Shown piece after piece: positions 13,013 to 51,833 of a stretch of 64,000 bases of DNA. Every line of letters starts with the position of its first letter. Positions within the stretch are counted from its first letter, which is position 1. The stretch is taken from the IMG/VR virus record IMGVR_UViG_3300031555_004037. One strand, given 5' to 3'. The stretch is from a virus. Its lineage: Duplodnaviria; Heunggongvirae; Uroviricota; Caudoviricetes. The position numbers and the translations under genes were made by a program. The notes under the pieces were generated by a model, which saw nothing but the letters and a program-made list of their open reading frames with translations, was not told where the DNA came from and did not search any database.

Positions 13013-13032
13013 ATAAATTTTTATAAAACTGT

Positions 13033-24881: not shown

Positions 24882-24946
24882 GTAAGTATACAAAAAATTA
24901 TTTTTTTGTTATAATAAATAAAAATTATAGAAAGGAAAATTAAATA

Positions 24947-26860: not shown

Positions 26861-28936
26861 TTGGAGGAACTTATGTCAAAAAAAGTAGAAATTCCATTTA
26901 ATGTAATTGACCAAGATATTATTGGGGAATTAAAGAAAAATTATATTATCTATGCAAATGAGTTAAATAAACATAGAGCAATTCCTTATATCTTAAATGG
27001 TCTAAAGCCTATTGCAGCACATATTATTTGGGCTATGAAAGCAAATAATAGAACACATAATAAGAATTATACAAAATCTGCAAAGGTTACAGGAGAAATT
27101 ATGAATTATTCTCCACACGGAGATTCATATGACTCTTGTGTGAGATTAGCACAAGACTTTATTTATCATATTCCATATATTGATGGACACGGTTCTTTTG
27201 GTTCTGCCATTGGTGGACCTACTCCTGGTGCTTCAAGATATACGGAAATGAGATTAAGTAAATTTATTGAAGATGTATTATTATATAATACAGATTTATT
27301 AGATATGGGGCTTAATTATCTTGAAGAAGATGAAGAACCTATTATCAATAATTGGGTGGCATTATTACCTTTAATGTTTATTACTAATACAACAGGTATG
27401 GGATATGCTACATCACAAACTTGGTCATCTGGAAATTTATATGAATTTAGAGAACAATTATTAAATTATCTTAATAATGGAGAAGTTGATTGTTCTAATA
27501 TTTATCCAGATTTCCCTACTGGTGGTATTATTGTAAATAAATCCGATATGAAGTCCTTATATGAAAATGGTAAGGGTACAATTAAACTTCGTGGTAAGGC
27601 AGAAGTTGATGGTAATACAATTAGAATTTTATCATTACCATATCAGAAATATCCAGAACAGTTTATTGAAGATATTAAAAAGTATGTTGCAAATAATGCA
27701 AATACCATTAAAGATGTTGCGAATATGTGTGGTATGAATGGCTTTTTAATTGAAATTGAATGTGACGATGGAACTGCTGAATATACATTAGAAACATTGT
27801 ATAAGAAAACTTGTTTACAGATTAGTATTTCTGACGAACATAAAGCAGTTATGCCTAATGGAGAAATTAAATTAGTATCACTTAAAGACTATATTGAATG
27901 TTTTGTAAATGCTAATATTGAGTTGGTTAAGAAAGAAGCACAACTTAATCTTGATAAAATTAGTTCAAGACTTGAAATTGTAGATGGTCTTTTATCAGCA
28001 TTAGACATTATTGATGATATTATTAAAGAAATTAAATCATCTAAATCAATGGACGATGCAAAGAAAACTCTTATGACTAAAACAATTAAAGGTCATAAAT
28101 TTACAGAAAGACAAGCCGATGCTATTGTTCATACACCACTTGGTAGATTAGCAAATCTTGAAAAGGTTAAATTACAAGATGAAAAAGAAGAATTAGAGAA
28201 AAAGAAAGCAGAAAATGAAAACTTATTAGTTGATTATAATGCACAGAAAACATTCTTCTTAAATAGATTTAATTCCCTTATTGATAAGTATGCTTGGGAA
28301 AGAAAAACAGAAGTAATTGATGTTATAATTGATGAAGAAATTGCTGAAAAAATTAAGAAACCTAGACAGTTAAAAGTAAAGAAAGAATATATGATAGTAT
28401 TAACTGCTGAAAATTGCTTAAAACGAGTTGAGGTGTCTAAATTTAGAGCAACTTCGGAAGATGAAAAGACAGTTCGAGTACAAGGAAATGAAAGAATTGT
28501 TTTAGTATCAAATCGTGGTAATATGTATAAGGTATTTTCAAATAAGATTGATGTTTGTATGCCTGCTGCATCTGGAACTGATATTGCAACTATTAGACCT
28601 GAAATCAATGATGAAAAGATTATTGCTATTTATTCATCAGATGTAACAATTCCTTATGTGTATTTTGTTACAAAAGAGGGTATGGGTAAAAAGGTTAAGT
28701 CTAAAGATGTTATTCAGTTATCAAAGGATATTGGAACAACTGTATGTGGTATGAAAACTGATACTGATGAAGTAATTGCAATTAAGTTACTTAATGAAAA
28801 TGAAAATATTGAAATCACAACTACAAAGAGAAAGTTAGTAGTTGAATCAGGTAAGCCACAAGGTAGACCTGCTGTTGGACATAAAGTAATTGAGTTAAAG
28901 AAAGACGAAACTATTACAGAAGTCCATTCAATTTAA
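26861..28936 (+). CDS. type IIA DNA topoisomerase, DNA cleavage subunit (GyrA/ParC/T4 gp52-like)
   Basis: LNGLKPIAAHIIWAM ~ GyrA DGLKPVHRRVLYAM; active-site Tyr motif GASRYTEMRLS ~ AAMRYTEIRLA. Confidence 0.85.
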   Translation: MEELMSKKVEIPFNVIDQDIIGELKKNYIIYANELNKHRAIPYILNGLKPIAAHIIWAMKANNRTHNKNYTKSAKVTGEIMNYSPHGDSYDSCVRLAQDFIYHIPYIDGHGSFGSAIGGPTPGASRYTEMRLSKFIEDVLLYNTDLLDMGLNYLEEDEEPIINNWVALLPLMFITNTTGMGYATSQTWSSGNLYEFREQLLNYLNNGEVDCSNIYPDFPTGGIIVNKSDMKSLYENGKGTIKLRGKAEVDGNTIRILSLPYQKYPEQFIEDIKKYVANNANTIKDVANMCGMNGFLIEIECDDGTAEYTLETLYKKTCLQISISDEHKAVMPNGEIKLVSLKDYIECFVNANIELVKKEAQLNLDKISSRLEIVDGLLSALDIIDDIIKEIKSSKSMDDAKKTLMTKTIKGHKFTERQADAIVHTPLGRLANLEKVKLQDEKEELEKKKAENENLLVDYNAQKTFFLNRFNSLIDKYAWERKTEVIDVIIDEEIAEKIKKPRQLKVKKEYMIVLTAENCLKRVEVSKFRATSEDEKTVRVQGNERIVLVSNRGNMYKVFSNKIDVCMPAASGTDIATIRPEINDEKIIAIYSSDVTIPYVYFVTKEGMGKKVKSKDVIQLSKDIGTTVCGMKTDTDEVIAIKLLNENENIEITTTKRKLVVESGKPQGRPAVGHKVIELKKDETITEVHSI

Positions 28937-28943
28937 TTAAGAT

Positions 28944-28983
28944 AGAAATGAGATAAGTAGTTAAATATGCTTTTCTCATTTCT
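28944..28983 (+). terminator. terminator-like hairpin
   Basis: AGAAATGAGA...TCTCATTTCT, weak T-run. Confidence 0.4.
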
Positions 28984-29022
28984 TTGAATTAAACTAATAT
29001 ATAGTTTTATTGGAGGAAAATT

Positions 29023-30378
29023 ATGACAACAAAATACAACAAAAAGTGGTATAAACCAGAAAAGTTAAGTACCAAAATTTTATTAACTGTATTAATTTTA
29101 TTATTTATCAGAGTATGTTCTAATATTCCTATTCCTTTTATCAATAAGGAATATCTTGAAATTATGTTTGCTGATAATTCAGCATTTTCACTTATTAATA
29201 CATTTTCTGGTGGTTCATTTACTCAAATGTCCTTTATGGCATTAAGTGTAACACCTTATATTACTGCATCTATTGTTTTACAATTATTAACTATTGTATT
29301 TCCTAAATTAGCAGAAATTCCAAAGGGTAGTCCAGAAGATAAAAAGAAATGGGAAATTTGGCAATTTGTTGTTGGTATTATTTTAGGAATTACACAATCT
29401 ATTGGTGTAGCATTAACTTTTGGTAGACAAGGTTTAATTACACCTTATAATTTTGGAACAGTTGCTTTAACCGTATTATTATGGTCATTAGGTGCTATAA
29501 TTACTATTGGAGCAGGTACATATATTACTAAATGTTGTTTTGGAAATGGTATCTCACTTATTTTAACAATGAATATTATTTCTTCATTACCTGGAGATAT
29601 TCTTAATTTCTATAATATGTATATTAAGGGAGAGAATATTGGAAATATTATTATTGCTTGTTTAGTAGGTCTTTTAATTGTTTTAGGACTTATTTCAGCA
29701 ACAGTTATTCTTAATGGGGCACAGAAAGAAATCAATGTAATTTATTCTAAAAATGCTTATAAGAATGGTGGAAATAATAAATCTGTATCAACTATTCCAC
29801 TTAAATTGAATATTGCTGGTGTAATGCCTGTAATTTTTACATCAACATTATTCTCATTACCACTTATGTTTTTAACAAATTCTTCAAATAAAGTAGCACA
29901 AGCAATAGTACATATTTGTTCATCTACTTATTGGTTTGACGGAGAACATTGGTGGAGAACTATTGGATTTTTCTTATATGGTGCGTTAGTTATATTCTTT
30001 GCATATTTTTATACTGCTATTGTATTTAATCCATTTGAAATTGCACAGAATTTAAAGAAATCAGGTGCTTGTATTCCTGGTGTTCGACCTGGACAACCTA
30101 CCATTGAATATTTAACAAAGCAAAGTAAGTATTTAACTTTAATTGGTGCTGTTTATTTATTCTTATTAACTCAAATTCCTATGTTTATTATGCAATTTAC
30201 AGACTTGAGTTATTTATCATTTGGTGGTACTTCAATTATTATTATTGTTGGTGTAGTATTAGAAATTGCTACAACTCTTAAATCTGAAAGATTAAAATTT
30301 GCTTATACAAAAGCAACCTCAAGTAATTCATTTTTAGGTTTAAAAACAAATCAAAATGTAAGAAAGGGAGTATTTTAA
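29023..30378 (+). CDS. secY: SecY protein translocase subunit (mobile-element-encoded copy)
   Basis: FSGGSFTQMSFMALSVTPYITASIVLQLLT ~ FSGGAL...ALGIMPYISASIIIQLLT; GITQSIGVALTF ~ AIFQSIGIATGL; LKKSGACIPGVRPGQPTIEYL ~ [21 protein letters not shown]; 10 TM-like segments; not in spc-operon context. Confidence 0.9.
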   Translation: MTTKYNKKWYKPEKLSTKILLTVLILLFIRVCSNIPIPFINKEYLEIMFADNSAFSLINTFSGGSFTQMSFMALSVTPYITASIVLQLLTIVFPKLAEIPKGSPEDKKKWEIWQFVVGIILGITQSIGVALTFGRQGLITPYNFGTVALTVLLWSLGAIITIGAGTYITKCCFGNGISLILTMNIISSLPGDILNFYNMYIKGENIGNIIIACLVGLLIVLGLISATVILNGAQKEINVIYSKNAYKNGGNNKSVSTIPLKLNIAGVMPVIFTSTLFSLPLMFLTNSSNKVAQAIVHICSSTYWFDGEHWWRTIGFFLYGALVIFFAYFYTAIVFNPFEIAQNLKKSGACIPGVRPGQPTIEYLTKQSKYLTLIGAVYLFLLTQIPMFIMQFTDLSYLSFGGTSIIIIVGVVLEIATTLKSERLKFAYTKATSSNSFLGLKTNQNVRKGVF

Positions 30379-30537
30379 ATGAGAAGATTAAGAAATGAAT
30401 TAAAATCAATTAAATGGTTAAAGAGTGATGATGTAATGAAACAAACATTATTAGTGACAAGTGTGACAGTTTTAAGTGGTGCAATTCTATTAGGACTTGA
30501 CACTCTTGTACAATATATTATTGGAATTATCGTATAA
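30379..30537 (+). CDS. secE: SecE translocase subunit (52 aa; not in ORF track)
   Basis: MRRLRNELKSIKWLKSDDVMKQTLLVTSVTVLSGAILLGLDTLVQYIIGIIV ~ Bacillus SecE (K-x-x-W-P ... single TM ... LLD); RBS AAGGGAG; directly downstream of secY. Confidence 0.7.
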   Translation: MRRLRNELKSIKWLKSDDVMKQTLLVTSVTVLSGAILLGLDTLVQYIIGIIV

Positions 30538-30546
30538 GGAGATAAT

Positions 30547-31227
30547 ATGTTAATAACTGATGTTATGAAAATCTGTAAAATAAAATGGTTATACAAGGAT
30601 AATGAATTTTATTATTGTATGACCGACATAGTTACAGGTAAGGATATAATTATATATTCAAGTAATGACGAATATGATGAAGAAGATGATGAAGAAGATG
30701 AATATGAGGACGAATATGACGAAGATGAAATAGATATAGAAAATGTAGCTTGTTTTCGTGAAAGATTTTATGAAACATATATACAATGTTCAAAAACTTT
30801 AGATAATATAATACAATCTGTAATTCTTATTGGGGAATTTGAAGAAGATGTGGATTGTATTTATCTAAATGTAGCAAATCTTTGTATGTTTGCATTTGTA
30901 GATTGGATTTGTCACGCAGGATATTTAGAGTTAAATCATAGAAATCATACTGCCAAAATGAAAGATACAATTTCAAGAAAAACAATTACAGTAATGAATT
31001 GTTCAGATGAATGTGCTGAATCACTTCAAGATTTTGTAAATTTTATGGCAACAAATGAAAAAGTTGATTATTCTCTTAATGGTAAAAATACAATTTTATT
31101 TATGGGAACTAATTTAATGTATGACTTTGAAAAAATACAGTATGATAATATATCTAACGATTTGACTTTTGGAGATTTAGAACATCTTTATATGGAATTA
31201 TTTGAATATATGTTATATGATAAATAA
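30547..31227 (+). CDS. highly acidic hypothetical protein
   Basis: DEYDEEDDEEDEYEDEYDEDEIDIEN; between secE and the flotillin gene. Confidence 0.45.
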   Translation: MLITDVMKICKIKWLYKDNEFYYCMTDIVTGKDIIIYSSNDEYDEEDDEEDEYEDEYDEDEIDIENVACFRERFYETYIQCSKTLDNIIQSVILIGEFEEDVDCIYLNVANLCMFAFVDWICHAGYLELNHRNHTAKMKDTISRKTITVMNCSDECAESLQDFVNFMATNEKVDYSLNGKNTILFMGTNLMYDFEKIQYDNISNDLTFGDLEHLYMELFEYMLYDK

Positions 31228-31250
31228 AAAGAAAAAGGAGATTATTTAAA

Positions 31251-32780
31251 ATGAATGGACTAATTTCATTTGGAACAACTTTTGTTGTAATTGCTGTTAT
31301 TTTTGCAATTATTATTATTTTCACAAGTTATGTGAAAGCACCACCTGATAAAGCATATATTATTTCAGGTTTAAGAAGGAAACCAAAGATTTTAATTGGT
31401 AGAGCTGGATTAAAAATTCCGTTCTTTGAAAGAAAAGACGAATTGTTAATTAAGCAGATTTCTATTGATATTAAGACAGGCGATTATGTACCTACATTAG
31501 ATTTCATTGGTGTTAATATTGACGCTGTTGCAAAAGTCAAAGTTAGAACTGATGAAGAGGGTATTCAGTTGGCAATGAAGAACTTCCTTAATATGAGAGA
31601 AGACGCTATTATGAGTGCATTAGTTGATTCTTTACAAGGTAATATGAGAGAAATTATTGGTACTATTACTCTTAAAGATTTGTGTAATGATAGAAAGAAA
31701 TTCGGTGACGAAATTCAGAGTAAAGCACAGATTGATATGAATAATCTTGGTATTGAAATTATTTCTTGTAACATTCAGCACGTTGAAGACCAAAATGATT
31801 TAATCATTGCTTTAGGTCAAGATAATATGGCAAAAATTCAGAAAGATGCGTCAATCGCAAAGGCTATGGCTGATAGAGATGTTGCTATTGCACAAGCACA
31901 AGCAGAAAAAGAAGCAAATGACGCAAAAGTTCAATCAGATACAGAAATTGCTATTAAGCAAAATGAGTTGGCTATTAAGAGAGCAGAACTTAAAACTATT
32001 GAAGATGCTAAAAAGGCAGAGGCAGACGCTGCATATAAGATTCAAGAAGAAGAGCAGAGAAAGTCTATTGAGGTATCAACTGCTAATGCAGATATTGCTC
32101 GTCAAGAGAAAGAAATTGAATTAAAGAGAAAAGAGGCTGAAGTTCAAGAACAGGCACTTGACGCACAGATTAAGAAACAAGCAGAGGCAGAAAGATTTGC
32201 TAAACAACAAGCAGCAGACGCAGAATTGTATGAAAGACAGAGAAATGCAGAGGCAGAAAAGTTTGAATTAGAAAAACAAGCAGAGGCAAGAAAAGCACAG
32301 GCTGATGCAGACAGATATGCAAGAGAGCAAGAGGCAGAGGGTATTGCTGCTGTTGGTAAAGCAGAGGCAGAGGCTATTGCAGCTAAAGGTAAAGCAGAAG
32401 CAGAAGCACTTGAAAAGAAAGCCGAAGCAATGAAGAAATATGGACAAGCAGCAATTATTGAAATGATTGTTGATAAGTTACCAGATATTGCAGCATCAGT
32501 TGCTAAACCTTATGGAGATATTGATAACTTTACAGTTATTGACGGTGGAAATGGCGAGGGCAATAGTGTAGGTAATTTAGTACCACAGAATATTGCTAGT
32601 ACAAGAAAAGTAATCAATGATTTACTTGGTGTTGATATTGCTGATTTAGTTAGAGCAGATACATATGACGCTAAAGTAAATAAGAATGTAACAGTTAGTG
32701 GATTAGAGAATTTACAGTCTGTTACCGTAAATAATGAGTGTAATACTACACCAACAACTACAACAGTTGTAGAAGAATAA
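31251..32780 (+). CDS. flotillin-like SPFH/band-7 protein (FloT/YqiK-like)
   Basis: N-terminal TM; SPFH domain (YIISGLRRKPKILIGRAGLKIPFFE...); long Ala/Glu-rich coiled coil (AEAEA repeats) typical of flotillins. Confidence 0.8.
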   Translation: MNGLISFGTTFVVIAVIFAIIIIFTSYVKAPPDKAYIISGLRRKPKILIGRAGLKIPFFERKDELLIKQISIDIKTGDYVPTLDFIGVNIDAVAKVKVRTDEEGIQLAMKNFLNMREDAIMSALVDSLQGNMREIIGTITLKDLCNDRKKFGDEIQSKAQIDMNNLGIEIISCNIQHVEDQNDLIIALGQDNMAKIQKDASIAKAMADRDVAIAQAQAEKEANDAKVQSDTEIAIKQNELAIKRAELKTIEDAKKAEADAAYKIQEEEQRKSIEVSTANADIARQEKEIELKRKEAEVQEQALDAQIKKQAEAERFAKQQAADAELYERQRNAEAEKFELEKQAEARKAQADADRYAREQEAEGIAAVGKAEAEAIAAKGKAEAEALEKKAEAMKKYGQAAIIEMIVDKLPDIAASVAKPYGDIDNFTVIDGGNGEGNSVGNLVPQNIASTRKVINDLLGVDIADLVRADTYDAKVNKNVTVSGLENLQSVTVNNECNTTPTTTTVVEE

Positions 32781-32842
32781 AAAAATTATTAGTAGAGTAC
32801 GGTCTAAAAAGGTCGTACTCTATTATAATGTAAGGAGATAAT

Positions 32843-34651
32843 ATGTGGAAGAAAATTAGAGAATGGTTTAAAAAGAATAGGGGTTTAATTATTATTAGTT
32901 TTTTAGCCTCTATTATTACAATAACAATTTTACAAAATCGTCAATTATCTCAACAGCCTGAAATTAAAACCATTTCATATCAAGAATTTGAACAACTTGT
33001 AGAAGAAGAAAAAGTAGATAGTATCTATTATAATAAATCAAATGAATGGATGACTATTACTTTATTTAATGTTGAATCAAAAACATTAGATGCAAAAGAG
33101 AGATTAAATTATCAAGGATATACAAATGAAGATAAAAGAAATGTATCATATCCAGCATATGAAGAATTTAGGCACGATATGTTGAGTAATAATATAAATA
33201 TGATAATTGTAGACCCAAAAGTGTCTTTTATTGAAAAAGCATTATCAATCGTTTCTTTAATGTTTCCGTTATTATGGGTTTTTATTATTATGAGAATGTT
33301 AATTAGTTCTACTCAAGGAAATGTTAAAAGAAAAGAAATTATACAAACAAGTAATGTAAAATTTACTGATATTATTGGTCACGAAGAGATATTAGAAGAT
33401 GTTAAATTCATTACTGAACTTATTAAAAACCCTAAACTTGGAGATGATATAGGGGCAAAAGTTCCTAAAGGTATTTTATTAAGTGGAGAACCAGGTACAG
33501 GAAAAACTCTTATTGCAAAAGCAATCGCAGGAGAGGCAGGAGTACCATTCTTATATCAAAATGCGTCAAGTTTTATAGATAGATTTGTCGGTATGGGTGC
33601 AAAAAATGTTCGTGATTTATTTAAACTTGCAAAAGAAAATGCCCCTTGTGTATTATTTATAGATGAAATTGACGCTATTGGTGGAAATAGAAATAATGGT
33701 AAGGGTACATCTGAAAATGACCAAACAATAAATGCGTTATTACAAGAAATGGATGGTTTTACAGGTAGAGAGGGAATTTTTATAATTGCTGCTACTAATA
33801 GACCTGATATTCTTGATAGTGCTTTGGTTAGAGCAGGACGATTTGATAGACAAATTATTGTATCTGCCCCTAGAGATTGGGGAGTTAGAAAAGATTTATT
33901 TGAACATTATCTAAATAAATTTAAAGTTTTAGATGATGTAAATATAGTAAATTTAAGTAAACAAACAGCAGGATTTACTGGTGCTGATATTGCTGCAATT
34001 TGTAATGAGGCTAGTATTATTGCAGTTATGCAAGAAAAAGACGCTATTGATATGGATTGTATTGAAGAGGCTATTGATAAGAAAATCTTTAAAGGAAATC
34101 GTGCTAAAAAAGAGAAATACTTTGAAGATAAAAAGATTGTTGCTTATCACGAATCTGGACACGCTGTTATGAGTTATTTATTAGGAGAACCTATTGCTAG
34201 AGCAAGTATTCAATCTACTGTTTCTGGTGTTGGTGGTGTAGTATTTAATGAAGATAAAGATAGTGTATTTCAAACTAATATTGACTTTGAGAATAGAGTT
34301 TTGATATGCTATGCTGGTAGAGCATCAGAAGAAATTAAATTCAACTCTGTTACAACTGGTGCTTCTAATGATATTACACAAGCAACAAATGTTATGATGA
34401 ACTACATAGAAAAATTTGGTTTTGATAAAGAATTTGGTTTATTAGATATTGGTGTTTTAAGTAAGGAACATTTAATCAATAGTGAAGAAATTACTAATAA
34501 ATTAAGTAATATGTCTAGGAATTTATATGAAAAAAGTTTATCATTATTAAAAGATAACTATAAATTAGTAGAAACTTTGGCTAATAAATTATTAGATGTT
34601 GGAACATTATCTGGTGACGAAATTACAGAATTATTTAATAACTGTAATTAA
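32843..34651 (+). CDS. ftsH: FtsH-family membrane AAA+ zinc metalloprotease
   Basis: Two N-terminal TM helices; Walker A GEPGTGKT; Walker B VLFIDEIDAIG; second region of homology ATNRPDILDSALVRAGRFDRQ; HEXXH HESGHAV. Confidence 0.9.
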   Translation: MWKKIREWFKKNRGLIIISFLASIITITILQNRQLSQQPEIKTISYQEFEQLVEEEKVDSIYYNKSNEWMTITLFNVESKTLDAKERLNYQGYTNEDKRNVSYPAYEEFRHDMLSNNINMIIVDPKVSFIEKALSIVSLMFPLLWVFIIMRMLISSTQGNVKRKEIIQTSNVKFTDIIGHEEILEDVKFITELIKNPKLGDDIGAKVPKGILLSGEPGTGKTLIAKAIAGEAGVPFLYQNASSFIDRFVGMGAKNVRDLFKLAKENAPCVLFIDEIDAIGGNRNNGKGTSENDQTINALLQEMDGFTGREGIFIIAATNRPDILDSALVRAGRFDRQIIVSAPRDWGVRKDLFEHYLNKFKVLDDVNIVNLSKQTAGFTGADIAAICNEASIIAVMQEKDAIDMDCIEEAIDKKIFKGNRAKKEKYFEDKKIVAYHESGHAVMSYLLGEPIARASIQSTVSGVGGVVFNEDKDSVFQTNIDFENRVLICYAGRASEEIKFNSVTTGASNDITQATNVMMNYIEKFGFDKEFGLLDIGVLSKEHLINSEEITNKLSNMSRNLYEKSLSLLKDNYKLVETLANKLLDVGTLSGDEITELFNNCN

Positions 34652-34691
34652 AATAAAATAAAATAAAATAAAATAAAATAAAATAAAATAA
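34648..34691. repeat. (AAAAT)n pentanucleotide microsatellite, about 8-9 units
   Basis: TAAAATAAAATAAAAT... fills the spacer between the ftsH stop and the RBS of the giant surface-protein gene. Confidence 0.9.
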
Positions 34692-34708
34692 GAAAGGGAA
34701 GGTATTTT

Positions 34709-37700
34709 ATGAAAAGCAAAAGATTAAAAACTCGAATTTTGGCATTATTTTTAACTATGTTGCTTGTTACTAATTCTCCATTAGTTGCTATGGCTGAAAA
34801 TAATCCATCATTTGTAGAAGACGAAATAGTTACTACCGAAGAAACAACTACAGAAGAAGTAACTACGGAAGAGGTAACTACGGAAGAAATTATAACAGAA
34901 GAAGTAACAACAGAGGAAATCACAACGGAGGAAATCACAACAGAAGAAGTTGTAACCGAAGAGATTACGACAGAAGAAACAACTACAGAAGATGTAATAG
35001 AAGAAATACCTATTACATTTAATCTTAATAGAAATACTTTAGTTGAATATTGTGTTCCGTCTGAAGTAATAACTAAAATTGAATCTACTACATTTACACA
35101 TCAAACAACAGAATATAATAAATATGAATTGATTACAGATAATGCAGTAGATAATAACAATAATGTTTGGTATGTTTATTCTGTTAAGAGTGTTTTAGAC
35201 GATGAAGTAATAACTTTAGGTAATGTTATATTCCCTAAATCAGTTAAAATAGAAGATACCTTAATTATTCCTGCGTCTGTAACAGATTCCGAAACTTATT
35301 CAGTATATGGTGTAGGTAATAGTAGTTTTAAAGACGCAAATATAATTAACACATTAGAAATTGAATCTGGAATAAGGACTATTGAAGATTCAGCATTTGA
35401 AAATTGTGGTGTTTCAAACATAACATTATCAGATACAATTATATCTTTTGGTTCGTCAGTATTTGCTAATAATGATAATCTTACATCATTTACTTTTCCG
35501 ACAAATCCAGCATTTGTTGAAACAGGTTATAAAGTTTTATATGATTGTAATAATTTAACATCAATTACATTAGGAGAGAATATTAAAGTTATTTCAGCAG
35601 AATCATTCTATCAATGTAATAAATTGACTAATGTAGTCATTCCAGACGGTTTACAAGCAATATTATATAGAGCATTTGCAAAAACTGCTATAACAGAAAT
35701 CAATTTAAAGAATATAACTGGATTAGGTGCTCAATCATTTGAACATTGTTATAATCTTGAAACTATTGATTGGGGTGCTTGTTTATGGGGTGGAAAGATT
35801 GATTATAGAACTTTCTATATGTGTAATTCATTAAAAGAAATCAATATACCTGATAATGTTGAGGTTGTAGGAACTGACGCTTTTAATGGTTGTACATCTG
35901 TTACAAGCATTGACTTGAATAATGTTATTCAAATTGAATATTGTGGATTTGCTAATACAGGTATTACTGAATTGACAATTCCTGAATCCGTTAAATCAAT
36001 GGGTGCATTTTCATTTGGTAATACCACAAATCTTGAAACTGTAACATTTAAAAATGATATTAGAATTTATATTAGTGATGATTCAGCACCAAGTAAACAA
36101 TTATTTATAGTATTTGGTAAATTAACATATAATGAGCCTAGTGATACTTGGAATAATGACGGTGGTGCTTGGAAAAATGATGTTATTAAAAAAATAATAA
36201 TAGATAATGAAAATATTACAGATTGTACTTTTGTTCCAAATGGAATGTTTCAGTATATGGGAATTGAAGAGGTTATTCTTTCTGATAATATTTCCACATT
36301 AAATTATCAAGCATTTTTTGATTGTAAAAATTTAAAGACTATTAAAGCAAATAAATTAAATGCAATTCAAGATTCAGTATTTCAGAATTGTACTTCATTA
36401 GAAGAAATAAATCCAACTGACGATGTAAAAATTAACTTTCCAGATACACTTTATTGGATAGGTACTAATGCCTTTTTTAAGTGTAGTTCATTAGGAGATG
36501 TTACATTAGATAAAAACATTTTCCATATTGGTAATAGTGCTTTTTATAACTCTGGTATTACTAATCTTGTGATTGGTAATAATGTTACTGAAATCGGTTC
36601 TTCTGCATTTAAAGAATTAGTAAATTGTGAAAGCATATATATAGATGTTGAACCGTCTTTAGTAGAATATAGAGAATACGGAACAATGTTTTGGGGATGT
36701 ACTTCATTAGATACTTTAACTATTGGTAAAAATGTAACTACTCTTGAACCAAATTGTCTACAAAATATGGTCACAAAACATCTTATTTTTGAAGAGGGTA
36801 GCACAATTACTGAAATACCAAATCATTGTGTTTATGGAAATGCTAATCTTGAAAGTGTTGTTTTACCAGAAAATTTAATAACAATTAGTGAAGAGGCATT
36901 TCAAGCCTGTTATTCTTTAAAAAGTATTGAATTACCAAATACAATTACTACAATTAAAAGAAATGGTTTCTTTGGATGTCATTCACTTGAAACAATAACT
37001 GGTTTAGAGAATGTTGAGTATATTGGTAATCACGCTTTCTTTAACAATATAAATCTTAAAGAAGTATATATTGGGGAAAATGTTAATTATTTAGGTGCAG
37101 CATCATTCTTTAATACTTATTCACTTGAAAAAGTTACTATTGATAATAAGTATATGATTGATGAAACTACAGGAGAAACTATTTGTAAAACAAGTGAAAC
37201 TCAAACTGAACCACAAGTACAAAACTATCTTACTAGAGTATTTGGTAGAGATGATAGAAATTTTGACCATAATGGTTTAGCATCACATTTAAACTTTAAT
37301 AAAGAAAATTGTACACCACAACATTCATATTTTGAATTAATAATTACTGATAAAGTAGCACAATTACAAGATTATGAGTGTGAGGGTATGTATGTAAGTA
37401 AAGTTACTATTCAAGATAATGGAAAACTTACTGAAATTCCTTATATGTGTTTTAGTAATTGTGAATATTTAGAAACAGTTAATTTAGGTACAATAAATAA
37501 AATTGATAAATACGCATTTACTTGTTGTACAAGTCTAACTGAAATTGAATTACCAATGTCTGTAACTAATGTTGGAGAATATGCTTTTTCTGGTTGTGAT
37601 TCACTAGAAGAAATATATTTATGGAATCCTGATGTTAAAATAGAAAATTATGAGGGTAGTGAATTAAAACACGCTACTGAAATAGTAAATGGTGGTTCAA

Positions 37701-49352: not shown

Positions 49353-51833
49353 ATGTTAGATTTAATTGCAAAAAACAAAGAAATGTTAGATGCAAAAGCA
49401 TATAATATAGCAGACACTCGTTTAATGATGAGAATTGCAAGTCTTAAAACTATAAATGATTATGATTTGTATTTAATTGCGTGTTGTTTATGTAATTATG
49501 ATATTGAAGAAAAATCAGATGCAAGAGAACTTCGTATGGAATATTTCCTTAAAACTAATAATGGTTCTATTGTTGGATTTGAACACGGAGAATCTGATTA
49601 TGGTATTGTTGGAAAATCTGATATTAAATGTACTAATACAGGTAATGTAAATAAATTTGGTTTATATGAATATGAAATCAATGTAAATAATAAAGACCTA
49701 GTTTCTGATTTATGGGAAAAGAAACCAAAGGATTGTCTTAAATATGTGGATAACAAAACCTATGAAGATAAACTTATTGTTTCTATTAGTAAATCTCAAT
49801 TAGATAATTTTATGGCTATGTTAGATGAATTAGTTATTGATTATGAAATTTCAGATTTACAAAAGGGTTTAATTTATACAAATAAATCAGGTAATGAATT
49901 GATTGATATTTCTACCTTAGATTTACCTTTTGAACCATATCAATATCAAATAGAAGACGCTAAAAGATTAGTAAGTAAAAAAAGAGCATTACTAGGACAC
50001 GATATGGGCTGTGTATCAGGAAATAGTATAGTTCGTATTAAAGAAAGAGGAAAAAAAGCAACACGAGAAATAACCGTTTCTAATTTATTTAATTTGTTTG
50101 AAGAAGATAATACTATTCAAATTAAATGTTTAGTAAATGGAAGATTTGCTTATATGCCTATCAAAGCAGTAATTGATAAGGGTGTTCGTGATACTATTAG
50201 ATTAGTTACAAAAGATACTAGACTTGAATGTACTACTGACCACGAAATTTATACAGAAAAGGGTTGGGTAGAATCAAAAGATTTACAAGTTGGAGATTAT
50301 ATTGTTACAAATGAATTTGGAATTGATATACCTAATCATTTGATTAATTCGATTAAAAACAATATTGATGTTAATAAAACAATTAATGAAAACTGTGATT
50401 ATATATATACATCAAAAGTAGGTATTTCAGAAATTATTAGCATAGAAACTTGTGATACTCAACAAGTTTATGATATTGCTATTGACGATGTAGAAATTCA
50501 TAATTTTGTTTGTAATAATATTGTTGTTCATAATTGTGGAAAGACCTTAATTTCAATTTTAATTGGTCAAAGTTTAGATATGCCTAAATTAGTAATTTGT
50601 CCAGAGTCATTAAGATTAAATTGGTTAAGAGAAATTAAACAAGTTAAAAATGACGCAGATGTACAAATTTTATTAAGTAATGAAACACCTCATTTTGGAG
50701 AAGATTGGACAATAGTTGGTTATCAAACTGCAAGTAAATTTATTGATAATTTAATGAAATTTGAGTGTATCTTTGTAGATGAATGTCACAACTGTAAGGC
50801 TGTAAATAATTGGGGAAAACCGTCAAGTAAGAGAGCCGATGCAGTAATTACATTGGCAAATAATGCAGAGTATTGTTATTTATTATCTGGTACTCCAATG
50901 CCATCACATAATAAAGATTTATTCAATATTCTTAAAATGTTAAAATGTGAAGCATTTGATTTTAATAATAAATGGGCATTTAAGAATTATGCAGATAAAT
51001 ATTGTGACCCTAAAGAAACATATTTTGGTATGGACTATTCTGGTAATAGTAATTCAGATATGTTACACGGATTATTAAATAAACTAATGATACGAAGATT
51101 AAAGAAAGATGTATTACCACATTTAACAAAGCAAAGACAGTTTATTCCTATTGCACCAAAATTCAAAAAGGAATATATGGATATTGAAAAAAGATTATAT
51201 TTTCCTGAACCAGACGATACTTATATGGGATTGGCTATGACAGGAAGAAAATTATCTAGTCAATATAAAGTACAAACTGCTATTGAATTAGCAGAATCTT
51301 TAATTAATTCTGATGAAAGTGTAGTTATTGTTACAAACTTTATTGAAACAGCAGATATATTAAAAAATCATTTTAAAGATAAGGCTTGTGAAATTCGTGG
51401 TGGTATGAGTGATAAAGATAAGCAAAAAGCCATTGATGATTTTCAAAGTAAAAAGAAAACTGTATGTATATTAAATATGATGGCTGGTGGTGTTGGTATT
51501 ACTTTAACAGCAGCACATACAATGATAATGGTTGATTATGCTTGGTTGCCATCAGATATGACACAGGTAGAAGATAGAATTTGTCGTAGTGGTCAGACAG
51601 AGAATTGTATGATTTATTATATTTATTGTGAAAATTCTATTTTAGATAATATATTTATTGAGATGATTTCTGATAAATCAGCAAATATAGACGCAGTTGT
51701 AGATAATGTAGAAAACACATTTAATTTAAGTGAGGAAAAGTTAGCCAATTCAACTTATATTGATTTACTTAAATCAAAGATTAAAGAAACTAAACCAAAG
51801 GCAAAGCGTGGCAGAAAAAAGAAGACTGAATAA
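49353..51833 (+). CDS. SNF2/Rad54-family helicase with a mini-intein inside the Walker A motif
   Basis: Host motif DMG|CGKT split by the intein; DExH box VDECHNCK; motif VI QVEDRICRSGQT; remaining helicase motifs intact. Confidence 0.8.
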   Translation: MLDLIAKNKEMLDAKAYNIADTRLMMRIASLKTINDYDLYLIACCLCNYDIEEKSDARELRMEYFLKTNNGSIVGFEHGESDYGIVGKSDIKCTNTGNVNKFGLYEYEINVNNKDLVSDLWEKKPKDCLKYVDNKTYEDKLIVSISKSQLDNFMAMLDELVIDYEISDLQKGLIYTNKSGNELIDISTLDLPFEPYQYQIEDAKRLVSKKRALLGHDMGCVSGNSIVRIKERGKKATREITVSNLFNLFEEDNTIQIKCLVNGRFAYMPIKAVIDKGVRDTIRLVTKDTRLECTTDHEIYTEKGWVESKDLQVGDYIVTNEFGIDIPNHLINSIKNNIDVNKTINENCDYIYTSKVGISEIISIETCDTQQVYDIAIDDVEIHNFVCNNIVVHNCGKTLISILIGQSLDMPKLVICPESLRLNWLREIKQVKNDADVQILLSNETPHFGEDWTIVGYQTASKFIDNLMKFECIFVDECHNCKAVNNWGKPSSKRADAVITLANNAEYCYLLSGTPMPSHNKDLFNILKMLKCEAFDFNNKWAFKNYADKYCDPKETYFGMDYSGNSNSDMLHGLLNKLMIRRLKKDVLPHLTKQRQFIPIAPKFKKEYMDIEKRLYFPEPDDTYMGLAMTGRKLSSQYKVQTAIELAESLINSDESVVIVTNFIETADILKNHFKDKACEIRGGMSDKDKQKAIDDFQSKKKTVCILNMMAGGVGITLTAAHTMIMVDYAWLPSDMTQVEDRICRSGQTENCMIYYIYCENSILDNIFIEMISDKSANIDAVVDNVENTFNLSEEKLANSTYIDLLKSKIKETKPKAKRGRKKKTE
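50010..50534 (+). mobile_element. mini-intein (175 aa, no endonuclease domain) in the SNF2 helicase P-loop
   Basis: Begins CVSGNSIV, block B TTDHEIYT, ends VYDIAIDDVEIHNFVCNNIVVHN followed by +1 Cys (CGKT); excision would restore DMGCGKT. Confidence 0.75.

What the first reader, a model, noticed from the sequence alone, without database searches (positions are those of the whole stretch)
34648..34691. (AAAAT)n microsatellite occupying the 5-prime region of the giant surface-protein gene: potential phase-variation switch
About 8-9 perfect AAAAT units sit between the ftsH stop and the RBS of the 1727-aa gene. Pentanucleotide tracts in promoter or 5-prime UTR positions of surface-protein genes are classic slipped-strand mispairing switches, altering promoter-element spacing or read-through from the upstream operon. 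Its placement in front of the single adhesin-like cargo is striking.
Basis: seen in the sequence. Interest (0 to 1): 0.62.

Follow-up and report, generated by a model that had tools for sequence, protein, structure and literature searches.

The report
Spacer microsatellite before phage adhesin gene
A perfect eight-unit AAAAT repeat really sits between a phage-borne FtsH-like gene and a giant surface-protein gene, but it is a strain-specific expansion of an untranslated spacer inside an operon, with no promoter around it, and not a demonstrable on/off switch.

Summary
A perfect (TAAAA)x8.6 tract lies at 34649-34691; its first TAA is the stop codon of the FtsH-like gene, and it runs up to the Shine-Dalgarno region of a 1727-aa gene.

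That gene encodes a signal-peptide, BspA-type LRR protein with an LPXTG-type wall anchor. The window is the replication and transcription module of an uncultured phage-like element found on contigs over 300 kb.

**Comparison with relatives:**
- Seven other contigs of the same clone (99.97-100% identical, at least five samples) all carry exactly 8 units.
- Sister strains about 2% diverged carry 2 units; one of them also has an IS200/IS605 element inserted 12 nt upstream of the FtsH stop.
- One strain carries 1 degenerate unit, and one carries at least 4 (its contig ends inside the tract).

**Why a switch is unlikely:**
- The tract is an expansion of a two-unit seed. It lengthens the stop-to-start spacer from 22-27 nt to 57 nt.
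- No promoter of this genome's clear class lies upstream of the gene, no terminator lies at the junction, and only 17 nt separate the tract from the ATG.
- Predicted RBS accessibility is the same for 2 to 15 units.

Frame and promoter-spacing switching are therefore excluded by the anatomy. A weak, graded effect on translation remains possible but untested. Interest is low.

The parts
32843..34651 (+). FtsH-like AAA+/M41 protease gene (602 aa). Its TAA stop (34649-34651) is the first triplet of the repeat.
   Evidence: Pfam AAA 8e-44, Peptidase_M41 3e-30, AAA_lid_3. NCBIfam FtsH_fam scores 477 bits, below the equivalog cutoff of 600, so it is divergent. Identical protein P0001 is on 10 metagenome contigs.
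34621..34649 (+). Weak 8-bp hairpin AATTACAG-N13-CTGTAATT at the FtsH 3' end, directly before the tract. It is not followed by a T-run.
   Evidence: Inverted repeat I7. It is the only pairing kept in the centroid fold. It was not called as a terminator.
34649..34691 (+). (TAAAA)x8.6 perfect microsatellite, equal to eight AAAAT units at 34650-34689. It is 100% A+T and places a TAA in all three forward frames.
   Evidence: TRF score 86 with 100% matches. Chance expectation is 0.09 for only 3 units. Relatives carry 1, 2, at least 4, or 8 units.
34635..34664 (+). Weak sigma-70-like match TTAATA-18-TAAAAT (9 of 12, no TG). Its -10 hexamer is the third repeat unit, so it exists only in alleles with at least 3 units.
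   Evidence: Promoter scan. The region yields 58 such sites against 65 +/- 8 in shuffles, which is background level. In 2-unit alleles the hexamer at that spacing is TAAGAA.
34692..34702 (+). Shine-Dalgarno region GAAAGGGAAGG of the LRR gene, identical in 2-unit and 8-unit strains.
   Evidence: Read directly from the sequence.
34703..34710 (+). TATTTTAT overlapping the start codon. It is perfectly complementary to ATAAAATA, which occurs in every register of the tract.
   Evidence: Inverted repeats I15-I21. In the model the AUG unpaired probability is 0.73 with 0 units, falls to 0.46 at 2 units, and plateaus at 0.40.
34709..39892 (+). 1727-aa secreted, wall-anchored BspA-type LRR protein. It has a signal peptide, a TEE[VI]T acidic linker, seven LRR_5 stretches, Flg_new, Big_2 and CarboxypepD_reg/SdrD_B domains, and a C-terminal SPETG + TM + KKYKK sorting signal.
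   Evidence: Pfam LRR_5 1.5e-120 and other domains. N- and C-terminal translations. NCBIfam LPXTG_anchor 23.9 bits against a cutoff of 15.9.
34832..34997 (+). In-frame 15-nt coding repeats (about 11 copies) that encode the TEE[VI]T linker.
   Evidence: TRF periods 15, 30 and 45. Translation.
39898..39928 (+). Hairpin AAGGACTAtC...GgTAGTCCTT just after the LRR gene stop. It is the likely end of the transcription unit. The next gene has its own TG-extended promoter-like site at 39930-39958.
   Evidence: Sequence. Promoter scan TAAACA-17-TATAAT with TG.

Best explanation
The tract is a slippage-generated microsatellite inside an operon-internal, untranslated spacer. It lies in an uncultured phage-like element (contigs over 300 kb) that infects a Gram-positive host.

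The seed was an ancestral two-unit sequence, TAAAATAAAAT, made of the FtsH-like gene's TAA stop and the A-rich stretch before the Shine-Dalgarno of the downstream LRR surface-protein gene. In the window's lineage this seed expanded to eight units.

*Shown.* The only sequence-level consequence is that the distance from the FtsH stop to the LRR start codon grows from 22-27 nt to 57 nt. The added RNA is unstructured and A-rich. Neither reading frame changes, no recognisable promoter or terminator is affected, and the SD is unchanged.

*Inferred.* The tract is neutral or nearly so. At most it acts as a weak quantitative modifier of LRR-protein translation, for example through looser termination-reinitiation coupling or an A-rich standby leader. 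It is not an on/off phase-variation switch.
For: - **Anatomy.** The stop codon is the first triplet of the tract, the SD follows directly, and the ATG is 17 nt after the tract.
- **Comparison.**
  - The window and seven contigs at 99.97-100% identity all have 8 units and a 57-nt spacer.
  - L034 and L035 have 2 units plus an extra T, so FtsH ends NLK* at the next TAA. L036 has 2 units plus an IS200/IS605 element 12 nt upstream of the stop. L038 has 2 units. L037 has 1 degenerate unit.
  - L044 has at least 4 units, and its contig ends in the tract.
  - L045 (FtsH protein 78% identical) has a 41-nt spacer with no repeat before a gene that opens with a similar signal peptide.
  - L039 (75%) has a 4-nt spacer before a related surface-protein gene, with a purine-rich, SD-like stretch inside the FtsH 3' end.
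  - These short junctions indicate co-transcription and, in L039, probable translational coupling as the ancestral state.
- **No promoter.** The genome's promoter class occurs nine times in intergenic regions with leave-one-out scores of 14-26 bits. The best score in 34201-34708 is 2.1 bits.
- **No terminator** at the junction.
- **No Rfam family** in 28800-40600.
- **RNA folding.** The junction folds no better than shuffles, z = +0.61. Modelled SD and AUG accessibility are flat from 2 to 15 units.
- **Rate of change.** In the 3.5 kb upstream, the five strain groups nearest the window (window clone, L044, L034/L035, L036, L037) differ by about 0.4-2%. Much of the window's distance comes from one 500-nt patch. 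L044 is nearer to the 2-unit strains. So at least two length changes occurred among close strains, as expected of an ordinary microsatellite.
Against: - Only assembly consensus sequences were available. Within-population length heterogeneity, which defines a contingency locus, could not be examined.
- Three contigs end at or in the tract (L032, L033, L044). This fits a de Bruijn loop but would also fit length heterogeneity.
- Eight perfect pentanucleotide units is well above the length at which SSRs are treated as candidate phase-variable tracts (screening criteria in PMC7302503).
- It is the only such tract in 64 kb, and it sits in front of a wall-anchored adhesin-like gene.
- SSRs in transcribed leaders do tune adhesin expression elsewhere: uspA2 (PMC7302503) and hmw1A (PMC12721329).
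- The element encodes its own split RNA polymerase. Its promoter motifs are unknown and could not be scanned for.
Confidence: 0.62

Rival explanations
1. Leader rheostat. The tract is transcribed as part of the FtsH-LRR mRNA, and its length tunes LRR-protein output in a graded way. Possible routes are stop-to-start distance (coupling), an A-rich ribosome standby or S1-type enhancer, an AU-rich RNase cleavage site, or the 8-bp pairing with the AUG region. Slippage would then generate expression variants on which selection acts.
For: - The tract is in the right place for a leader effect.
- ATAAAATA in every register is complementary to TATTTTAT over the AUG.
- Unit number differs among strains at about 0.6-2% divergence.
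- Precedents exist: uspA2 AGAT(n), up to 3.4-fold in mRNA (PMC7302503), and hmw1A ATCTTTC(n) in the 5'-UTR (PMC12721329).
Against: - Modelled SD and AUG accessibility plateau at 2 units and do not change up to 15.
- There is no stable structure, z = +0.61. The hmw leader, by contrast, uses 10 repeats in a long hairpin.
- There is no length variation among eight sequences of the 8-unit clone.
- No intermediate alleles (3, 5, 6, 7, 9 or more) were seen.
Confidence: 0.22
2. Expansion-created promoter. Growth to at least 3 units placed a TAAAAT -10 hexamer 18 nt from a TTAATA -35-like hexamer in the FtsH 3' end. This would give the LRR gene its own weak host-sigma-A promoter, a gain of constitutive expression and not a switch.
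For: - The site at 34635-34664 matches 9 of 12 positions.
- In 2-unit alleles the same position reads TAAGAA.
Against: - Such 9-of-12 matches are at background frequency in this AT-rich DNA: 58 found against 65 +/- 8 in shuffles.
- The site lacks the TG extension and the TTTACAAA -35 shared by the genome's nine evident promoters, and no position in 34201-34708 scores above 2.1 bits on their matrix.
- Units beyond the third would have no effect on it.
Confidence: 0.08
3. Classic on/off phase variation. Unit gain or loss alters -35/-10 spacing, operator spacing or read-through, switching the adhesin on and off at high frequency.
For: The tract is long, perfect and upstream of a surface-protein gene. 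Unit number is polymorphic between strains.
Against: - No promoter elements straddle the tract, and only 17 nt (SD plus spacer) lie between it and the ATG.
- No terminator is present.
- The tract is outside both ORFs, and TAA occurs in all three frames, so indels are buffered. L034/L035 show this: FtsH simply ends two codons later.
- The clone is invariant at 8 units.
Confidence: 0.04
4. Assembly or sequencing artefact, or a structural DNA element such as an origin-unwinding element or a packaging site.
For: The tract is a 43-bp stretch of pure A+T. Three contigs break at it.
Against: - The identical tract appears in eight sequences from at least five samples.
- GC skew is monotonic across the window, so there is no origin-like shift.
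- Closely related genomes function with 1-2 units, or with an IS element a few bases away.
Confidence: 0.02

Closest known systems
Haemophilus influenzae hmw1A/hmw2A (ATCTTTC)n repeat in the transcribed 5'-UTR (PMC12721329; PMC2424069)
   Same: A perfect short tandem repeat lies between upstream transcription signals and the start codon of a very large adhesin gene, outside the ORF and outside the -35/-10 core. This is the closest match in geometry.
   Different: - In hmw, ten repeats pair with a G-rich arm to form a long hairpin processed by RNase III. Expression is inversely proportional to repeat number, and natural alleles have at least 11 units.
- Here the tract is unstructured, and its only partner is an 8-nt A/U stretch.
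- The tract sits at an operon-internal junction and not behind a mapped promoter.
- No within-clone variation is seen, and the host genome is a phage-like element.
Moraxella catarrhalis uspA2 (AGAT)n upstream repeat (PMC7302503)
   Same: A tetra- or pentanucleotide SSR upstream of a surface adhesin ORF, giving graded and not on/off effects.
   Different: - The uspA2 tract is 132 bp upstream, and it varies between strains (13-18 units in the genomes tabulated there).
- It changes uspA2 mRNA by up to 3.4-fold.
- Here there are no expression data, and one clone is fixed at 8 units.
Neisseria meningitidis nadA (TAAA)n (PMC2791445); also promoter-spacer repeats such as H. influenzae hif (TA)n and Mycoplasma vlp poly(A) (the last two from general knowledge)
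   Same: An A/T-rich SSR upstream of an adhesin gene.
   Different: Those tracts lie upstream of, or between, core promoter elements and regulator binding sites. Here no promoter can fit downstream of the tract (17 nt to the ATG), and none is detectable around it.
Ordinary intergenic VNTR or microsatellite polymorphism of the kind used for strain typing (general knowledge)
   Same: Perfect repeat, strain-specific copy number, stable within a clone, and no demonstrable effect on neighbouring genes. This is what the data show.
   Different: Nothing in the present evidence distinguishes the tract from this class. The exceptions are its position directly before the SD of a surface-protein gene and its presence in a huge phage-like genome.

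Membership tests
SSR-mediated phase-variable (contingency) locus | A perfect tract long enough to undergo frequent slipped-strand mispairing | tested here: met
   8.6 perfect units over 43 nt. This is above the pentanucleotide screening threshold of more than 2 units used in PMC7302503.
SSR-mediated phase-variable (contingency) locus | The tract is placed so that unit gain or loss changes a reading frame, or the spacing of -35/-10 or regulator sites | tested here: not met
   - The tract is outside both ORFs. The stop codon is its first triplet, and TAA occurs in all three frames.
- No promoter class member lies within 500 nt upstream.
- Only 17 nt lie between the tract and the ATG.
- No terminator is present.
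SSR-mediated phase-variable (contingency) locus | Unit number differs among closely related genomes | tested here: inconclusive
   - It differs between strains about 0.6-7% apart: 1, 2, at least 4, and 8 units.
- It is identical (8 units) in all eight sequences of the window's clone from at least five samples.
SSR-mediated phase-variable (contingency) locus | High-frequency, reversible length heterogeneity within a population | not testable with these tools
   Only consensus assemblies are available, with no reads. Contig breaks at the tract (L032, L033, L044) are ambiguous.
SSR-mediated phase-variable (contingency) locus | Expression of the adjacent gene depends on unit number | not testable with these tools
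   In-silico proxy only. SD unpaired probability is 0.85 at 2 units and 0.91 at 8. AUG unpaired probability is 0.46 and 0.40. Values are flat to 15 units.
5'-leader SSR rheostat of the hmw1A type | The repeat RNA forms a stable structure with a complementary arm that is a processing target | tested here: not met
   - The junction RNA has an MFE of -10.8 kcal/mol against -12.5 +/- 2.8 for shuffles, z = +0.61.
- The tract is about 80% unpaired.
- The only complement is 8 nt long.
Sortase-anchored BspA-type LRR surface protein (the downstream gene) | N-terminal signal peptide, BspA-type LRR domains, and a C-terminal LPXTG-type sorting signal | tested here: met
   - The N-terminus MKSKRLKTRILALFLTMLLVTNSPLVAMA was read by eye as a signal peptide.
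- LRR_5 scores 1.5e-120 with 7 stretches.
- The C-terminus carries SPETG, a hydrophobic segment and KKYKK. LPXTG_anchor scores 23.9 bits against a cutoff of 15.9.
- SPETG fits the (S/P)PXTG form studied in Clostridioides difficile (PMC4155245).

The most novel reading that the evidence does not exclude
The tract could be a genuine contingency locus carried by a huge phage. In that reading, slippage in the transcribed FtsH-LRR leader produces subpopulations of phage genomes that make different amounts of a phage-encoded, sortase-anchored giant adhesin on the infected cell's wall. The phage would be bet-hedging over how it remodels the host surface. The expansion from 2 to 8 units, and independently to at least 4 in another strain, would then be adaptive.
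Probability: 0.1. Interest if true: 0.55.

Novelty: new member of a known kind. Interest (0 to 1): 0.22.

Why it matters
If the tract did tune expression, it would be a rare case of SSR-based contingency regulation encoded by a phage. It would act on a host-surface adhesin delivered by the phage next to its own SecY/SecE-flotillin-FtsH module.

As the evidence stands, it is an ordinary strain-specific microsatellite. Its practical value is as a length marker that separates the window's clone (8 units) from sister strains (1-2 units). It also shows that a repeat upstream of a surface-protein gene is not by itself evidence of a switch.

The more interesting biology lies in the surroundings. The slot downstream of the phage FtsH-like gene carries variable cargo: a giant LRR adhesin, a shorter Ig-like protein plus a serpin, or nothing. 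In one strain an IS200/IS605 element is inserted at the junction.

Tried and rejected
1. **Cultured-phage and plasmid databases.** blastn of 32843-36000 gave only distant FtsH AAA-domain matches. tblastn of the RNAP beta-like protein found only about 38% identity over 14% of the query in cultured jumbo phages. There is no known close relative.
2. **IMG/VR.** It holds one relative, with a 43%-identical FtsH and no synteny. An exact-pattern scan for the SD/start junction found nothing in viral contigs or genome contigs.
3. **The 25 loci from the metagenome-contig scan.** Their FtsH proteins are 39-61% identical and are followed by unrelated genes, so they say nothing about the tract.
4. **Protein search with the LRR N-terminus, to find more junction-bearing contigs.** It returned one irrelevant hit, not even the protein itself, probably because of the low-complexity linker. 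The exact full-length LRR product is not on record.
5. **Rfam.** No family matched in 28800-40600 at E <= 1.
6. **Origin or unwinding-element idea.** Rejected because GC skew is monotonic and relatives lack the tract.
7. **DNA curvature idea.** Rejected on general knowledge: A-tracts phased at 5 bp, half a helical turn, cancel each other and do not add up.
8. **Readthrough or frameshift fusion of FtsH to the LRR protein.** Rejected because TAA occurs in all three frames of the tract.
9. **IS200/IS605 target-site idea for the repeat.** Rejected because the IS in L036 is inserted after TATTTAA, 12 nt upstream of the stop and not in the repeat.
Full report
**1. Observation**

Tandem Repeats Finder reports a single array at 34649-34691 with period 5, 8.6 copies, 100% matches and no indels. 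The sequence reads ...AAC TGT AAT TAA-AATAAAAT...AAAATAA-GAAAGGGAAGGTATTTT-ATG.

The tract is (TAAAA)x8 plus TAA, which equals eight AAAAT units at 34650-34689. Its first triplet is the stop codon of ORF 32843-34651. It abuts the purine-rich Shine-Dalgarno region of ORF 34709-39892.

Three consecutive units are expected 0.09 times per window in dinucleotide-preserving shuffles, and they occur only here. No other array of period 4-6 exceeds four copies in the 64 kb.

**2. What surrounds it**

The window is not a bacterial chromosome.
- It is 22-33% G+C per 2-kb window (about 27% on average), and almost all genes are on one strand.
- It encodes a UvsX-like recombinase, DnaB-like helicase, primase, split RNA-polymerase beta and beta' fragments, both topoisomerase II subunits, an NAD ligase and an intein-bearing SNF2 helicase. 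All have PHROG matches.
- Identical genes occur on metagenome contigs of up to 324 kb.
- Cultured phages and plasmids show only remote similarity.
- I read it as the replication and transcription module of an uncultured huge phage-like element. No virion genes lie in this window, so "phage" is an inference.

The local gene string runs SecY, SecE, a 226-aa ORF, a flotillin/SPFH protein, the FtsH-like AAA+/M41 protease, the repeat, and then the 1727-aa gene.

The 1727-aa protein has:
- a signal-peptide-like N-terminus and a TEE[VI]T acidic linker;
- seven BspA-type LRR_5 stretches, plus Flg_new, Big_2 and CarboxypepD_reg/SdrD_B domains;
- a C-terminal SPETG motif, a hydrophobic segment and KKYKK.

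The C-terminus passes the NCBIfam LPXTG-anchor cutoff. SPETG fits the (S/P)PXTG sorting motif studied in Clostridioides difficile (PMC4155245).

So "surface-protein gene" is right, and the host is presumably a low-GC Gram-positive bacterium (inference). A hairpin at 39898-39928 follows the gene, and the next two genes have their own promoter-like sites.

**3.

The FtsH-like protein has near-identical copies in public assemblies. I fetched their contigs and read the junctions.

| Sequences | DNA identity to window | AAAAT units | FtsH stop to ATG | Notes |
|---|---|---|---|---|
| Window, L027-L033 (7 contigs, at least 5 samples) | 99.97-100% | 8 in every one | 57 nt | One clone. L032 and L033 end 2 nt past the tract, so their spacer cannot be read. 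|
| L034, L035 | 98.2% | 2 | 22 nt | An extra T makes FtsH end NLK* at the next TAA of the tract. |
| L036 | 98.4% | 2 | 27 nt (stop of the displaced FtsH 3' fragment, beyond the IS, to ATG) | A 1.77-kb IS200/IS605 element (Y1 TnpA plus TnpB) is inserted after ...TATTTAA, 12 nt upstream of the FtsH stop. |
| L038 | 94% | 2 | 27 nt | |
| L037 | 92.6% | 1, degenerate | 31 nt | TAAAATAAACTCAAATTAG |
| L044 | 97.9% | at least 4 TAAAA units | not readable | The contig ends inside the tract. |
| L045 | 80%; FtsH protein 78% identical | none | 41 nt | A gene opening with a similar signal peptide follows. |
| L039 | 79%; FtsH protein 75% identical | none | 4 nt | A purine-rich, SD-like stretch lies inside the FtsH 3' end. 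A 520-aa Flg_new/Big_2/CarboxypepD_reg protein and a serpin follow. |
| L041, L042 | not measured; FtsH protein 71-72% identical | not applicable | not applicable | No surface-protein gene. FtsH is followed by the UvrD-like helicase that matches window 40496-42247. |

In the 3.5 kb upstream of the tract, L044 differs from the 2-unit strains at 20-22 sites and from the window at 73 sites. Of those 73, 44 lie in one 500-nt patch.

Three conclusions follow.
- The tract is an expansion of an ancestral two-unit seed.
- At least two length changes occurred among strains 0.6-2% apart.
- Nothing changed within the 8-unit clone.

The surface-protein gene is variable cargo in a slot downstream of the FtsH-like gene, and its ancestral junction is tight and operon-internal.

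**4. Mechanistic tests**

*Promoter.* Intergenic regions of this window share an obvious promoter class, T[TA]TACAAA-N14-TGnTATAAT. It occurs at 13032, 22151, 24887, 40443, 44459, 48929, 54896, 56855 and 62540.
- A matrix built from these nine sites gives leave-one-out scores of 14-26 bits. The best score anywhere in 34201-34708 is 2.1 bits.
- The nearest upstream member is at 24887.
- The generic sigma-70 scan finds one site that touches the tract: TTAATA (34635), an 18-nt spacer, then TAAAAT (34659-34664), 9 of 12 matches. Sites of this quality are at background frequency in the region, 58 found against 65 +/- 8 in shuffles.
- That site exists only in alleles with at least 3 units. Its -10 hexamer is the third unit, so additional units extend 3' of it and cannot alter its spacing.
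- Downstream of the tract there are only 17 nt, the SD plus its spacer, before the ATG. No promoter can lie there.

*Terminator.* None is called at the junction. The 8-bp hairpin before the tract is not followed by a T-run.

*Reading frames.* The tract is outside both ORFs and carries TAA in all three frames. The +1 T allele in L034/L035 merely adds two residues to FtsH.

*RNA structure.*
- The junction folds no better than shuffles, z = +0.61.
- An 8-nt stretch, ATAAAATA, is present in every register of the tract. It is complementary to TATTTTAT, which overlaps the AUG.
- I modelled 0 to 15 units. The SD unpaired probability rises from 0.46 at 0 units to 0.85 at 2 units and 0.91 at 8 units. 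The AUG value falls from 0.73 to 0.46 and then 0.40. Both are flat from 3 units onward.

*Other checks.* No Rfam family matches. GC skew shows no origin-like inflection.

**5. Explanation**

*Shown.*
- The tract is real, was produced by slippage from a two-unit seed, and is specific to certain strains.
- It lengthens an untranslated spacer inside an operon from 22-27 nt to 57 nt.
- It changes no ORF, no SD and no recognisable promoter or terminator.

*Inferred.* It is neutral, or at most a weak quantitative modifier of LRR-protein translation. Possible routes are looser termination-reinitiation coupling or an A-rich unstructured leader (confidence 0.62).

*Rivals.*
- A graded leader rheostat (0.22).
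- A weak promoter created by the expansion, which would be a constitutive gain and not a switch (0.08).
- Classic on/off phase variation through spacing or read-through (0.04). The anatomy contradicts this.
- An artefact or a structural DNA element (0.02).

*Caveats.*
- Only consensus assemblies were available.
- Three contigs end at or in the tract. This fits a de Bruijn loop but does not exclude heterogeneity.
- The promoters used by the element's own RNA polymerase are unknown.

**6. Comparison with known systems**

- *hmw1A/hmw2A heptamer repeat of Haemophilus influenzae.* This is the closest match in geometry. The repeat lies in the transcribed 5'-UTR of a giant adhesin gene. Ten repeats pair with a G-rich arm into a long hairpin that RNase III processes, and expression falls as repeat number rises (PMC12721329). 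The tract here lacks any such structure, so that defining feature was tested and not met.
- *uspA2 AGAT(n) of Moraxella catarrhalis.* This is a looser analogue with graded effects of up to 3.4-fold (PMC7302503).
- *nadA-type and promoter-spacer SSRs* (PMC2791445). These need flanking promoter or regulator elements, which are absent here.

Against the defining features of a contingency locus:
- tract length is met;
- a position that couples length to expression is not met;
- variation among relatives is inconclusive (between strains yes, within the clone no);
- within-population switching and dependence of expression on unit number are not testable here.

I therefore do not file it as a phase-variation locus. 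On present evidence it behaves like an ordinary intergenic VNTR.

**7. Verdict**

It is a real, polymorphic SSR in front of a real surface-protein gene, but neither proposed switch mechanism fits the anatomy.
- Novelty: a new member of a known kind.
- Interest: 0.22.
- The most novel reading still open is a phage-borne contingency locus that tunes display of a phage-encoded adhesin. I give it a probability of about 0.1.

**8. Dead ends**

These are listed under Tried and rejected.

Noticed in passing
L036 4797-6565 (ENA ERZ28436105 NODE_4, 317.5 kb); corresponds to an insertion after window 34637: An IS200/IS605-family element of about 1.77 kb (134-aa Y1 TnpA plus 364-aa TnpB/OrfB) is inserted after ...GAATTATTTAA, 12 nt upstream of the FtsH stop, in a sister strain.
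- There is no target duplication, and each end carries a hairpin.
- It replaces the FtsH C-terminus NNCN with KVMC.
- It separates the LRR gene from FtsH by 1.8 kb, which makes it a natural polar-insertion variant of this junction.
   Followed up: partly
window 29023-34651: The phage-like element carries its own membrane and secretion module: SecY (TIGR00967, 294 bits, above cutoff), a 52-aa SecE, a 226-aa ORF, a flotillin/SPFH protein and a divergent FtsH-like protease. A giant secreted, sortase-anchored protein follows directly.

Relatives without the LRR gene keep flotillin and the FtsH-like gene, so at least that part of the module looks like core genome.
   Followed up: partly
window 34652-40495 compared with L039, L041, L042, L045: The slot between the FtsH-like gene and the UvrD-like helicase holds variable cargo:
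- a 1727-aa LRR adhesin plus a 149-aa ORF in the window;
- a gene opening with a similar signal peptide in L045 (its contig ends about 100 nt after the FtsH stop);
- a 520-aa Flg_new/Big_2/CarboxypepD_reg protein plus a serpin in L039;
- nothing in L041 and L042, which instead carry a PARP-domain gene upstream of FtsH.
   Followed up: partly
window 34832-34997: About 11 in-frame 15-nt repeats encode a TEE[VI]T acidic linker just after the signal peptide. The protein is 1727, 1728 or 1732 aa in different strains, so this coding repeat or other indels also vary. I did not locate the length differences.
   Followed up: no
window 13032, 22151, 24887, 40443, 44459, 48929, 54896, 56855, 62540: Nine intergenic sites share a strongly conserved promoter-like motif, T[TA]TACAAA-N14-TGnTATAAT, which has an extended -10 of the Gram-positive sigma-A type. 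This suggests that many genes of this module are read by the host polymerase, although the element encodes split RNAP beta and beta' fragments.
   Followed up: partly
window 49353-51833: The SNF2-family helicase gene carries an intein (Pfam Intein_splicing 2.7e-12, residues 242-394) inserted in the helicase domain.
   Followed up: no
L032 and L033 (3' ends), L044 (3' end): Three independent contigs stop 2 nt past the tract or inside it. This most likely reflects a de Bruijn-graph loop at a 43-nt perfect repeat, but read-level length heterogeneity was not excluded.
   Followed up: no
window 31650-32150 (flotillin gene) compared with L034-L037 and L044: Of the 63-77 differences between the window's clone and its sister strains in the 3.5 kb upstream of the tract, 43-44 fall in one 500-nt bin. 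This points to a recombined patch in the flotillin-like gene.
   Followed up: no
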